Shown piece after piece: positions 29,762 through 31,644 of a DNA stretch of 51,277 nucleotides. The stretch lies in IMG/VR virus record IMGVR_UViG_2851955134_000001. One strand, written 5' to 3'. The position numbers were made by a program, and so were the translations under genes. Position 1 is the first letter of the stretch. Each line of letters opens with the position of its first letter. The notes under the pieces are model-generated. The model was not told where the DNA came from, made no database searches, and worked only from the letters and a program-made list of their open reading frames with translations. The stretch is from a virus. Taxonomy: Duplodnaviria; Heunggongvirae; Uroviricota; Caudoviricetes.

Positions 29762-30238
29762 CTATCTGCACTGCTCATTAATATACTTCTGGGTTCCTTC
29801 CAGTTGTTTTTGCATAGTGATCAACCTCTCTCTGAGGGTGAAATAATCCCGTTCAGCGGTGTCTTCCAGTCGGGGGCTGGTTGCATTATCCACGCCGGAG
29901 GCGGTGGTGGCTTCACGCACTGACTGACAGACTGCTTTGATGTGCAACCGACGACGACCAGCGGCAACATCATCACGCAGAGCATCATTTTCAGCTTTCG
30001 CATCAGCTAACTCCTTCGTGTATTTTGCATCGAGCGCAGCAACATCACGCTGACGCATCTGCATGTCAGTAATTGCCACGTTCGCCAGCTTCAGTTCTCT
30101 GGCATTTTTGTCGCGCTGGGCTTTGTAGGCGATGGCGTTATCACGGTAATGATTGACCGCCCACGACAGGCAGACGATGATGCAGATAACCAGAGCATAA
30201 ATAATCGCGGCGACTCTGCTCACTGATCTATCCCCCAA
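29762..30238 (-). CDS. Rz: spanin inner-membrane subunit Rz
   Basis: Matches recalled lambda Rz (…[25 protein letters not shown]…). Confidence 0.85.
29821..30003 (-). CDS. Rz1: spanin outer-membrane lipoprotein Rz1, embedded in Rz in another frame
   Basis: 60-aa ORF inside Rz with signal peptide, lipobox VVGC and a proline-rich stretch. Confidence 0.7.
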
Positions 30239-30753
30239 CAGGCTAATGCGCTTTCCTGGTCACGACGAATAACCTGTCCATAGCAGTTATTTGAACGTAT
30301 GCGGCAATCGCGCCCACCATCCTTTATCCACCAGCGAATCGCCTCGCAGGCGCCCTTACGATCACCGGCATTAAGCCGCTTATAAAACGTCGACGGGAAA
30401 CACTTACCAGGGCCAATGTTATAGGGACAGAATGACGCGATACCGGCTTTCTGTGGCTCGGTCAGTGGAACTTTAATATTGCGATCCACCCATGCCAGAG
30501 CCTTATCCCGTTCAATAGCGTTAACCTGATCGCATTTTTCCTTCGACAGCTTCATTCCGGGAAAAACGTGTTTTCCATCCACCATCGTGGCACCCCGACA
30601 GATGGTCCATATACCGGAGCCATCACGGTATGCCGTAGTGTGATTACCTTCTTTTTCGTCCAGAAACTGGTCAAGAATGACGGGAGCGGATGCACCTGCA
30701 GCAATCAACGCCAGAACGGCAGCCGACAGGCCGTATCTGATTTTTGTGCTCAT
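30220..30753 (-). CDS. SAR endolysin (T4-lysozyme-like, phage-21 R type)
   Basis: N-terminal signal-arrest-release-like hydrophobic segment [18 protein letters not shown], then lysozyme-like region. Confidence 0.8.
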
Positions 30754-30877
30754 GGATATTTATCGTTTTCTGAACCCTGGATATGTTAAAGCCTCAGCCC
30801 GCCAGTAGTGTAGTGGGCACTGGCGTTCCGGTTAAGGCTCGGGTGGTTGGCTGAGCTACCCCATCTAAGGATCTGAT

Positions 30878-31117
30878 ATGAAAAAAGAAACTTTTATTAA
30901 TGTTACAGCGGACTGTTCATCCCCCAACTCAACAACAGGAGAAATTGAGGCTCTTAAATATATGATTGCAGTTATGTTTTCTGTATTAGACCAGAATGAA
31001 AAAAATGCTATCATTTATCAATTAACAGAACATGCAGATAATCCATATATCAAAAGCAATATCGAAATGCTGCTACCAATGAAAGATATTGGAAAGCCAA
31101 CTGAGACAAAAGGTTAA
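30878..31117 (+). CDS. hypothetical protein on the antisense strand within the lysis cassette
   Basis: 79-aa AT-rich ORF; no similarity recognised. Confidence 0.35.
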   Translation: MKKETFINVTADCSSPNSTTGEIEALKYMIAVMFSVLDQNEKNAIIYQLTEHADNPYIKSNIEMLLPMKDIGKPTETKG

Positions 31118-31425
31118 AAACCAGCAATTGAGTTATCTGAACCGTTAATTTTTATGGTATACCGCGCCTCTGAATGGAGGCGCTTTTCCGGCAACGACCA
31201 CGCTTCACATAACCCGGCAGCAGCATCCATAAAAATCTTCTTCGCTCGTTTTTTCGCCTCTGCTTCATAAAGCTCCAGCGCTGCGCCGTCAACACGATCA
31301 AGCTTAATCACCACATGCGGCGAAAACAGCGTCGGATAGCCGTCGCTCTCCAGCGCCACAGTAACCACAACCTTATCCGGGTGACTACTTATCCCTTTAA
31401 TAACCAGTTCGTATTTTTTATTCAT
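31114..31425 (-). CDS. hypothetical protein between holin and endolysin
   Basis: 103-aa ORF in operon frame; unknown. Confidence 0.45.
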   Translation of the reverse strand: MNKKYELVIKGISSHPDKVVVTVALESDGYPTLFSPHVVIKLDRVDGAALELYEAEAKKRAKKIFMDAAAGLCEAWSLPEKRLHSEARYTIKINGSDNSIAGF

Positions 31426-31428
31426 CGC

Positions 31429-31644
31429 CTACTCTCCCCGCGCCGCCTTGCGACGGTCCTCTTTTATCTTGAAGTACAGATTCGTCAGATAAGTCAGAAA
31501 GCCCAGTGCCAGACTCCCCAGCACACCAATAGCAGCCCACTGTGACGGACTGACCTGATCAATCCACTGTAAAAACCAGTACCCGGCACTACCTGCTGAG
31601 GTGCCATAGGCAACACCCGTTGTTAACTTATCCATGGATTTCAT
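31429..31644 (-). CDS. pinholin (phage-21 S21 type, dual-start motif MKSMDK)
   Basis: [45 protein letters not shown]... matches recalled S21. Confidence 0.85.

What the first reader, a model, noticed from the sequence alone, without database searches (positions are those of the whole stretch)
30220..31644. Pinholin / SAR-endolysin cassette interrupted by an extra ORF and an antisense moron
The phage-21-type pinholin (31429-31644) and SAR endolysin (30220-30753) are separated by a 103-aa ORF of unknown function, and a divergent AT-rich 79-aa ORF (30878-31117) sits on the opposite strand. The insert may modulate lysis timing or be unrelated cargo.
Basis: partly seen in the sequence, partly recalled or inferred. 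Interest (0 to 1): 0.4.

Follow-up and report, generated by a model that had tools for sequence, protein, structure and literature searches.

The report
Phage-21-type lysis cassette with YdfR and a moron
This is an ordinary, already annotated lysis gene cluster of an E. coli prophage. It carries two small extra genes: a common gene of the YdfR family, and a rare AT-rich gene on the opposite strand that is real but of unknown function.

Summary
On the minus strand lie a phage-21-type pinholin (31429-31644), a 103-aa ORF (31114-31425), a SAR-type lysozyme (30220-30753) and the Rz/Rz1 spanins. All are downstream of a Q antiterminator. A 79-aa, 32% GC ORF (30878-31117) lies on the plus strand.

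The 103-aa ORF is not an unknown insert. It is DUF1327/YdfR, found in the same slot in E. coli K-12 Qin (essQ-ydfR-rrrQ), in BP-4795, in mEp460, in 95 phage records, and as similar DNA in 3157 of 5426 complete E. coli genomes. One 2026 paper reports that K-12 YdfR binds the catalytic half of RNase E and co-purifies RNA. It is soluble, and most S21-type cassettes lack it.

The 79-aa ORF looks like a real gene:
- it is the only open frame in three diverged alleles;
- dN/dS is about 0.27;
- it has a conserved Shine-Dalgarno sequence;
- a GC hairpin with a short T run follows it.

It is rare (about 100 genomes, one phage record) and has no detectable function. It sits in a mosaic slot that is empty in K-12 and BP-4795 and holds a different 86-aa opposite-strand ORF in other phages. 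The YdfR C-terminal tail is read from the antisense strand of this cassette's 3' end.

The arrangement is already annotated in RefSeq, so interest is low. Whether either gene affects lysis timing is untested.

The parts
33339..34160 (-). Q antiterminator (context: places the cassette in the late operon)
   Evidence: Pfam PF03589 Antiterm, E 3.5e-51
31712..32764 (-). N6/N4 DNA methyltransferase directly upstream of the holin (context)
   Evidence: PF01555, E 9.6e-43. Same arrangement in mEp460.
31689..31705 (-). Terminator-like hairpin GGCCAC-N5-GTGGCC followed by TTTTTATTT, between the methylase stop and the pinholin start
   Evidence: Scan and fold (z -1.7). Function inferred only.
31429..31644 (-). 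Phage-21-type pinholin (71 aa) with dual start M1/M4
   Evidence: PF04971, E 5.5e-35; PHROG holin; TMD1 52% Gly/Ala/Ser/Thr, and a hydrophobic TMD2
31114..31425 (-). ydfR (DUF1327), 103 aa, predicted soluble. It starts 3 nt after the pinholin stop, and its Shine-Dalgarno sequence (GGGGAGAG) lies inside the 3' end of S.
   Evidence: PF07041, 95.8 bits. 44% identical to K-12 YdfR over residues 1-74. AF2 gives three strands plus a long helix, with the tail (74-103) disordered. No TM segment.
31164..31187 (+). GC-rich hairpin (GCGCCTCT-GAAT-GGAGGCGC) plus TTTT, about 45 nt after the ORF79 stop. Candidate terminator of ORF79. It lies antisense within the ydfR tail codons.
   Evidence: Folds. Conserved in the LF82, tcmA_3 and L016 alleles. 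Homology between the two cassette contexts ends just after it.
30878..31117 (+). ORF79: 79-aa acidic (pI 5.0) soluble protein, predicted to have three helices; 32% GC
   Evidence: coding tests; PHROG 21218, unknown function; annotated by PGAP as hypothetical WP_032354427.1; AF2 pLDDT 66
30754..30877 (+). Spacer between the R start and the ORF79 start. It contains a conserved weak promoter-like pair TTTATC (30759-30764) N17 TATGTT (30782-30787), a palindromic hairpin CGCCAGT...ACTGGCG (30800-30825), and the ORF79 Shine-Dalgarno sequence.
   Evidence: Alignments; fold. The promoter pair matches only 7/12 and lies in sequence that BP-4795 retains without any opposite-strand ORF.
30220..30753 (-). 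SAR-type endolysin (177 aa): T4-type lysozyme with E35-x8-D44-x5-T50 and an N-terminal Gly/Ala/Ser-rich anchor (residues 8-27)
   Evidence: PF00959. Aligns to 3HDE (phage 21 lysozyme), E 7e-17, with the N-terminus included. Composition.
29762..30223 (-). Rz i-spanin (GTG start overlapping the R stop)
   Evidence: PF03245, E 1.4e-52; translation
29821..30003 (-). Rz1 o-spanin lipoprotein, embedded in Rz
   Evidence: PF06085, E 9e-20
29437..29730 (+). Bor/Iss lipoprotein, a second opposite-strand moron after the cassette
   Evidence: PF06291, E 9.6e-31; sequence

Best explanation
The region is a standard phage-21-type lysis cassette in the Q-dependent late operon of a lambdoid E. coli prophage. 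It carries two accessory genes of different kinds.

The lysis pathway itself is inferred from family membership. The pinholin accumulates and then depolarises the inner membrane. This releases and activates the membrane-tethered SAR lysozyme. Rz/Rz1 then breach the outer membrane.

(1) ydfR (DUF1327) is an in-operon gene, tightly packed after S, that encodes a small soluble cytoplasmic protein. By analogy with its K-12 orthologue, it most likely binds RNA and the catalytic half of RNase E late in infection. It is not a component of the lysis machinery. Only its first ~80 residues are the conserved domain.

(2) ORF79 is a genuine protein-coding, AT-rich, opposite-strand gene with its own ribosome-binding site and a terminator-like hairpin, i.e. 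moron-like cargo. It sits at the ydfR-R junction, which is a recombination-prone slot. That slot is empty in K-12 Qin and BP-4795. In mEp460 it holds a 45-nt remnant of ORF79. In PhiR12_2 and 2H10 it holds an unrelated-looking 86-aa ORF with a canonical terminator. The last ~24 codons of this YdfR are read from the antisense strand of the cassette's 3' end, so this YdfR tail is probably a by-product.

ORF79 most likely acts as a small binding protein made in the lysogen. Its target is unknown.
For: Family assignments.

ydfR in the same slot elsewhere: K-12 Qin, where the ydfR stop overlaps the rrrQ start; mEp460; BP-4795. YdfR is in 95 phage records against 438 with an S21-type holin. ydfR-like DNA is in 3157 of 5426 complete E. 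coli genomes.

ORF79 is coding: it is the only open frame in three alleles; dN/dS is 0.26-0.29; Fisher p = 7.5e-4; the Shine-Dalgarno sequence is conserved.

ORF79 is a cassette. The module recurs next to a different lysis cassette (holin_8/holin_3_7/M15 peptidase). There it follows an upstream gene that shares with this YdfR the tail EKRL.SEARYTIKIN.SDNSIAG, plus only weak similarity in the preceding helix. DNA homology ends right after the hairpin.

Presence/absence and alternative cargo in the slot.
Against: - No promoter for ORF79 reaches a 9/12 consensus match. The best conserved candidate scores 7/12 and lies in sequence that BP-4795 also keeps without any opposite-strand ORF.
- The hairpin's T run is short (TTTTCC), and in the window its fold is only z -1.7.
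- The commonest allele of ORF79 in public data is a 48-aa frameshifted form (A7 to A6), seen in 351 blocks of the collection. An intact protein is therefore dispensable in that lineage.
- The RNase E data come from a protein only 44% identical. The authors themselves note few transcriptome effects and a possible contaminant.
- No experiment links either gene to any phenotype in a phage.
Confidence: 0.6

Rival explanations
1. Lysis-timing modulators. YdfR and/or ORF79 would act on the pinholin or the SAR endolysin, for instance by binding the cytoplasmic C-terminus of S21, or by holding the endolysin in the membrane. This would tune when lysis fires.
For: ydfR lies between S and R in every context examined, including with a different holin family (PF16080). 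It is translationally packed with them: it starts 3 nt after the S stop and overlaps R by ATGA in K-12. A Keio ydfR deletion appears in the hit lists of an envelope-permeability screen (PMC3879167 supplements). Accessory regulators of SAR endolysins exist in other phages (abstracts of PMC9239132 for Mu and PMC9025707 for P1).
Against: Neither protein has a TM segment or signal peptide. About 78% of phage records with an S21-type holin lack ydfR. From general knowledge, phage 21 SRRzRz1 alone suffices for lysis. Overexpressing K-12 YdfR causes no growth defect. The Keio hit is unvalidated, and it could be a polar effect of the cassette on rrrQ (my inference). ORF79 is on the opposite strand and is frameshifted in its commonest lineage.
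Confidence: 0.15
2. ORF79 is not a functional protein gene. The 360-nt AT-rich insert would matter, if at all, as RNA or DNA. For example, an antisense transcript or convergent transcription could damp leaky read-through from S/ydfR into R in the lysogen, or the insert could be decaying junk.
For: An ORF of this length arises in 7% of shuffles. The frameshifted 48-aa allele is the most widespread. mEp460 keeps only a 45-nt remnant. No family, structure or defence-library match exists. The 5' palindromic hairpin is conserved across cassettes that carry different ORFs.
Against: The frame is kept open over dS about 0.38 in three alleles, while the five other frames carry 3-9 stops each. dN/dS is about 0.27. 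The Shine-Dalgarno sequence is conserved at the right distance. The frameshift allele is otherwise identical in its downstream frame to the intact allele P0002, so the lesion is recent.
Confidence: 0.12
3. YdfR and ORF79 form a functional pair, for example a regulator and its partner, or a toxin-antitoxin-like pair, selected together.
For: They are convergent with stop codons overlapping in 4 nt in all ORF79-bearing S21-type cassettes. The upstream gene in the second context shows weak similarity to the YdfR helix as well as sharing the tail.
Against: ydfR-like DNA is in 3157 genomes, but the ORF79 module is fully covered in only 101. ORF79 also occurs next to a gene that lacks the DUF1327 domain by Pfam. 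The overlap is explained by the cassette's 3' end supplying the tail codons.
Confidence: 0.05

Closest known systems
Phage 21 lysis cassette S21-R21-Rz/Rz1 (pinholin / SAR endolysin paradigm)
   Same: The holin is of the P21 S family with the MKSM dual start. The lysozyme is homologous to R21 (PDB 3HDE), including the N-terminal anchor and the E-D-T triad. The Rz1 spanin gene is embedded in Rz. Gene order is the same.
   Different: Here two extra genes lie between S and R. The endolysin is only distantly related to R21 (E 7e-17) and is 12 residues longer.
E. coli K-12 Qin cryptic prophage essQ-ydfR-rrrQ; BP-4795 ORF46-48; phage mEp460 gp54-56
   Same: Same S - DUF1327 - lysozyme order, already annotated as 'YdfR family protein'.
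   Different: In K-12 the ydfR stop overlaps the rrrQ start, with no spacer. BP-4795 has a 50-nt spacer and mEp460 a 55-nt spacer. The C-terminal tails of YdfR differ. Window YdfR is 44% identical to K-12 YdfR over residues 1-74.
Morons of lambdoid phages (e.g. bor of lambda; definition of Juhala/Hendrix, from general knowledge)
   Same: An extra gene with deviant base composition, present in some relatives and absent in others at the same site. It is on the strand opposite the late genes, like bor here (29437-29730), and has its own Shine-Dalgarno sequence and a terminator-like hairpin.
   Different: No convincing promoter was found. The cassette's 3' end overlaps the convergent ydfR gene and supplies its last ~24 codons.
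86-aa opposite-strand ORF (PHROG 2572) between the long-form DUF1327 gene and R in phages PhiR12_2 and 2H10
   Same: Same slot, same orientation, and the same ~85-nt region next to the R start including the GCCAGTG...CACTGGC palindrome. It is convergent with and overlaps the DUF1327 gene, and a terminator follows it.
   Different: Protein homology to ORF79 is not established: Smith-Waterman 44 with 9/5000 shuffles as good, and hhalign E 0.034 with probability 1.5%. The 86-aa form is far commoner (on at least 999 contigs).
Phage-encoded modulators of RNase E (T7 gp0.7, phiKZ Dip, T4 Srd; from general knowledge)
   Same: A small phage protein reported to contact RNase E (K-12 YdfR, PMC13232886).
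   Different: No sequence or fold relationship was tested or claimed. An effect of YdfR on RNase E activity has not been shown.

Membership tests
Phage 21 S-type pinholin | Sequence membership in the P21 holin S family | tested here: met
   PF04971, E 5.5e-35, 119.6 bits against a cut-off of 26
Phage 21 S-type pinholin | Two TMDs, the first weakly hydrophobic (SAR-like, Gly/Ala/Ser/Thr-rich), plus a dual-start motif giving antiholin and holin | tested here: met
   TMD1 is [21 protein letters not shown], 52% G/A/S/T. TMD2 scores KD 1.59. The N-terminus is MKSM.
Phage 21 S-type pinholin | Forms small holes that depolarise the membrane but do not pass endolysin | not testable with these tools
   Needs physiology
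SAR endolysin | T4-type lysozyme fold with the catalytic E-x8-D-x5-T triad | tested here: met
   PF00959. E35, D44 and T50 are read from the sequence and aligned to 3HDE.
SAR endolysin | N-terminal signal-anchor-release segment rich in Gly/Ala/Ser, homologous to that of R21 | tested here: met
   Residues 8-27 are [20 protein letters not shown], 55% G/A/S. The alignment to full-length R21 starts at residue 11.
SAR endolysin | Sec-dependent export and release on depolarisation | not testable with these tools
   Needs experiment
DUF1327 / YdfR family | Pfam PF07041 above the gathering score | tested here: met
   95.8 bits against 25. PHROGs 2091, 2735, 1085 and 406 also match.
DUF1327 / YdfR family | Location between holin and endolysin of a lambdoid late operon | tested here: met
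DUF1327 / YdfR family | Binding of the RNase E N-terminal half and of RNA (reported for the K-12 protein only) | not testable with these tools
Moron | Present or absent at the same site among related phages | tested here: met
   Absent in K-12 Qin and BP-4795, a remnant in mEp460, present in LF82, Perceval and GF60
Moron | Base composition differs from the flanks | tested here: met
   32% GC against 47-52%
Moron | Own terminator | tested here: inconclusive
   There is an 8-bp GC hairpin plus TTTT at 31164-31187. It is conserved, and DNA homology between contexts ends after it. It fails the T-run criterion of the scan.
Moron | Own promoter | tested here: inconclusive
   No site reaches 9/12. 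A conserved TTTATC-N17-TATGTT pair (7/12) exists, but it lies in sequence also present without the ORF.

The most novel reading that the evidence does not exclude
The ydfR-R junction of S21-type lysis cassettes may not be a random dumping site. It could be a dedicated slot for a fast-evolving family of opposite-strand small proteins (ORF79 here, the 86-aa ORF elsewhere). These share a 5' control region with a conserved hairpin. Their transcription or products, together with the RNase E-binding YdfR, would control the stability or leakiness of the lysis mRNA, and so the prophage's lysis decision.
Probability: 0.08. Interest if true: 0.5.

Novelty: already known. Interest (0 to 1): 0.18.

Why it matters
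It matters little for this window. The cassette is a textbook type, and both extra genes are already in RefSeq, Pfam or PHROGs as uncharacterised proteins.

The modest value is in the annotation:
- The 'interruption' between S and R is the normal home of DUF1327/YdfR. This family occurs in most E. coli genomes, and its first functional clue (RNase E binding) dates from 2026.
- The variable C-terminal tails of that family are explained by mosaic joints with opposite-strand cassettes.
- The small AT-rich ORF is a real gene, which makes it a candidate for anyone screening prophage morons for lysogen phenotypes.

Tried and rejected
- Rfam at E <= 1 over 29000-33500 gave only a chance miRNA match.
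- By eye, the minus strand of the 124-nt spacer looked tRNA-like (GGGGTAGCTCAGCC...GGTTCAGAAA). Neither ARAGORN nor Rfam supports this, so I dropped it.
- ORF79 has no Pfam, NCBIfam or PADLOC match.
- The PDB sequence search with ORF79 gave a weak match to RecA concatemers (E 0.0024, no single stretch passing). I judged it inflated by the repeated copies.
- A scan of one genome per species (185,579 species) found no ORF79 relative.
- The HMMER search of 1.8 billion representatives with YdfR returned two large repeat proteins (P0035, P0053). I discarded them as low-complexity noise after reading them.
- Homology between ORF79 and the 86-aa ORF could not be established.
- The 'DUF1823' label on the 86-aa ORF is a sub-threshold Pfam match (E 0.023, 15 bits against 25).
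- The consensus promoter search upstream of ORF79 was negative in all four alleles.
- A literature search for the RefSeq protein accessions of ORF79 found nothing. 'DUF1327' occurs in one genomics paper only.
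Full report
**What is there**

ORF listing of 28.5-33.5 kb and Pfam scans show a lambdoid late region on the minus strand. In order it contains:
- the Q antiterminator (33339-34160; PF03589, E 3.5e-51);
- an N6/N4 DNA methylase (31712-32764);
- a 71-aa holin of the phage 21 S family (31429-31644; PF04971, E 5.5e-35);
- a 103-aa ORF (31114-31425; PF07041 DUF1327, 95.8 bits against a cut-off of 25);
- a lysozyme (30220-30753; PF00959);
- Rz (29762-30223, GTG start) with embedded Rz1 (29821-30003).

The bor/iss lipoprotein gene follows on the plus strand (29437-29730). A 79-codon ORF lies on the plus strand at 30878-31117, in a trough of 32-37% GC.

**The lysis genes**

The holin has the MKSM dual start. 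Its first hydrophobic segment is weakly hydrophobic and Gly/Ala/Ser/Thr-rich, and its second is more hydrophobic.

The lysozyme aligns to the full-length phage 21 lysozyme structure 3HDE from residue 11 to 174 (E 7e-17). It carries E35-x8-D44-x5-T50 and an N-terminal segment [20 protein letters not shown] that is 55% Gly/Ala/Ser.

Calling these a pinholin and a SAR endolysin is therefore supported by sequence. Their behaviour in the membrane cannot be tested here.

**The 103-aa ORF is YdfR**

- In E. coli K-12 the Qin prophage has essQ-ydfR-rrrQ, with the ydfR stop overlapping the rrrQ start.
- Phage mEp460 annotates the same gene as 'YdfR family protein' between holin and lysozyme. BP-4795 does the same.
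- tblastn finds YdfR in 95 of 50,697 phage records, mostly Stx1a and Stx2c phages. The S21-type holin is in 438 records.
- ydfR-like DNA occurs in 3157 of 5426 complete E. coli genomes, up to 8 places per genome.
- Outside enterobacterial prophages the family is tiny: 41 clusters at 50% identity among 1.8 billion representatives.

The gene is tightly packed. It starts 3 nt after the S stop, and its GGGGAGAG Shine-Dalgarno sequence lies inside the end of S. The protein has no hydrophobic segment.

The only functional study found is PMC13232886 (2026). It reports the following for K-12 YdfR:
- residues 1-72 were recovered in a two-hybrid screen;
- the full-length protein interacts with RNase E 1-597;
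- RNase E 1-598 co-elutes with Strep-YdfR;
- DNase-resistant nucleic acid co-purifies with it;
- overexpression has little effect on the transcriptome and none on growth.

The authors add that a contaminating protein could explain the RNA. The window protein is 44% identical to K-12 YdfR over residues 1-74, and the tails are unrelated.

A Keio ydfR deletion appears in the hit lists of an envelope-permeability screen (PMC3879167 supplements). It was not followed up there. Because the deletion cassette sits just upstream of the lysozyme gene, a polar effect is a plausible explanation (my inference).

**The 79-aa ORF is probably a real gene**

On length alone it is not remarkable: 7% of dinucleotide shuffles of the 437-nt module contain an ORF this long. 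Four further lines of evidence support a coding gene:
1. The same 240-nt frame is intact in diverged alleles: LF82 and phage Perceval (82% aa identity), strains KC-Dl-1 and S43, and a Logan contig (77%).
2. Across three of these alleles the other five frames carry 3-9 stops each.
3. Nei-Gojobori dN/dS between the window and LF82-type alleles is 0.26-0.29 at dS about 0.38. Synonymous changes are in significant excess (Fisher p = 7.5e-4).
4. AAGGA/GAGGA lies 6 nt before the ATG in every allele.

PGAP annotates it as a hypothetical protein (WP_032354427.1 in strain GF60, whose DNA is 99.7% identical here). PHROGs holds it as family 21218, function unknown.

It is rare:
- the module is fully covered in 101 of 5426 complete E. 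coli genomes;
- the protein is found in one phage record, Perceval, where it is not annotated;
- it is in 11 IMG/VR contigs;
- it is in no species-representative genome.

**The slot between ydfR and R is mosaic**

At least five states exist.
- State 0, K-12: ydfR and rrrQ overlap.
- State 1, BP-4795: a 50-nt spacer.
- State 2, mEp460: a 55-nt spacer whose right part is the last 45 nt of ORF79, still in frame. This is most simply a deletion remnant.
- State 3, the window, LF82, Perceval and others: the ORF79 cassette.
- State 4, PhiR12_2 and 2H10: a different 86-aa opposite-strand ORF (PHROG 2572). It is convergent with and overlaps a long-form DUF1327 gene. A canonical terminator follows it (8-bp GC stem plus U7; fold z -3.3).

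States 3 and 4 share about 85 nt next to the R start, including a palindromic hairpin GCCAGTG-N5-CACTGGC.

Protein homology between ORF79 and the 86-aa ORF is suggestive but not established. A local alignment scores 44, reached by 9 of 5000 shuffles. hhalign aligns the same helices at E 0.034 but with probability 1.5%. BLASTP finds nothing.

**The cassette also moves between unrelated lysis modules**

In strain tcmA_3, and in many assemblies, the ORF79 module lies upstream of a holin_8/holin_3_7/M15-peptidase cassette. There it follows a 109-143-aa gene with no Pfam domain.

That gene's clear similarity to window YdfR is confined to its last ~24 residues (EKRLCSEARYTIKINSSDNSIAGC against EKRLHSEARYTIKINGSDNSIAGF). 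There is also a weak resemblance in the preceding helix.

DNA homology between the two contexts ends immediately after a GC-rich hairpin plus T run on the plus strand (window 31164-31187). This hairpin lies about 45 nt downstream of the ORF79 stop.

The simplest reading is that the cassette brings its own 3' hairpin. Whichever late-strand gene abuts the cassette is then read into its antisense strand until the next stop. This explains why the tail of this YdfR differs from the K-12 tail, why DUF1327 proteins vary from 103 to 287 aa, and why AlphaFold leaves the tail disordered.

In this second context the ORF carries a 1-nt deletion in its A7 run and stops after 48 codons. The downstream frame is otherwise the same as the intact allele P0002, so the lesion is recent. 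Even so, it is the most widespread allele (351 blocks of the collection).

**What was not found**

No sigma-70 consensus promoter (9/12) lies upstream of ORF79 in any allele. A conserved TTTATC-N17-TATGTT pair (30759-30787; 7/12) is the best candidate. It lies in sequence that BP-4795 retains without any opposite-strand ORF, so it cannot be assigned to the cassette. No Rfam family matches.

**Most likely working**

Shown by sequence: the family identities, the gene order, the coding signal, and the mosaic boundaries.

Inferred from the families: Q-modified RNA polymerase transcribes methylase-S-ydfR-(antisense of ORF79)-R-Rz/Rz1, and the pinholin, SAR endolysin and spanins then lyse the cell.

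Inferred from one paper on a 44%-identical orthologue, plus weak fold hints: YdfR is a cytoplasmic protein that binds RNA and RNase E and is made together with the lysis proteins. It is not needed for lysis itself, since most S21-type cassettes lack it.

Inferred from anatomy: ORF79 is independent cargo, probably expressed from the prophage. I cannot name its target.

**Comparison and verdict**

The cassette belongs to the phage 21 type. The S-ydfR-R order is that of K-12 Qin. ORF79 behaves like a moron such as bor, apart from the missing promoter evidence.

Everything is already annotated in public records, though uncharacterised. I rate it as already known, with low interest (0.18).

The most novel reading I cannot exclude is that the junction is a dedicated slot for a fast-evolving family of opposite-strand small proteins that, together with YdfR and RNase E, control the lysis mRNA. 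I give that about 8%.

Noticed in passing
window 31689-31705 (-): Terminator-like hairpin (GGCCAC-N5-GTGGCC plus TTTTTATTT) between the methylase stop and the pinholin start. It lies inside the 92-aa GTG-start extension of the holin ORF (31429-31707). mEp460 annotates that longer ORF as the holin (279 nt), so that annotation is probably over-extended.
   Followed up: partly
window 31114-31190; L006:1850-1925; L005:5555-5866: The C-terminal ~24 residues of this YdfR (EKRLHSEARYTIKINGSDNSIAGF) are also the tail of a 134-aa gene that has no Pfam DUF1327 match, in a different lysis cassette. They are absent from K-12 YdfR. They are encoded antisense to the hairpin that follows ORF79.
   Followed up: yes
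L029:2958-3218 (-) (phage PhiR12_2); L030:1201-1458 (phage 2H10): A different 86-aa opposite-strand ORF (PHROG 2572) fills the same slot between the DUF1327 gene and R. It is labelled 'DUF1823' on a sub-threshold Pfam match. It has a canonical terminator and is on at least 999 contigs in the protein collection.
   Followed up: partly
L006:1615-1761 and L010-L015:3001-3147: The commonest allele of ORF79 is a 48-aa form caused by a 1-nt deletion in the A7 run (window 31000-31006 equivalent). It is found upstream of a holin_8/holin_3_7/M15-peptidase cassette.
   Followed up: partly
L002:1789-1843 (phage mEp460): The 55-nt ydfR-R spacer of mEp460 contains the last 45 nt of ORF79, still in frame (MLPMKDTGKPTAKS*). 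The joint lies at a short GGAT/GGAAAT repeat, which looks like a deletion remnant.
   Followed up: yes
window 30800-30825: Palindromic hairpin CGCCAGT...ACTGGCG between R and ORF79. It is conserved, with loop-length variation and one C-to-T (G-U compatible) change, across the ORF79-type and 86-aa-type cassettes. Function unknown.
   Followed up: partly
window 26464-27444 (-): An IS-type DDE transposase (PF01609, DUF772) lies between the lysis region and the large terminase gene (23061-25046). Two ORFs without Pfam matches (27582-28076, 28155-29186) lie in AT-rich DNA beside it.
   Followed up: no
window 29437-29730 (+): Bor/Iss lipoprotein gene on the strand opposite the late genes, directly after Rz. 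This is a second moron flanking the cassette.
   Followed up: no
P0041 (206 aa), P0018 (287 aa), P0019 (170 aa): The DUF1327 N-domain occurs fused to various C-terminal extensions. These include the core of the 134-aa gene seen upstream of ORF79 in the second context. The family's ends appear to be reshuffled often.
   Followed up: partly
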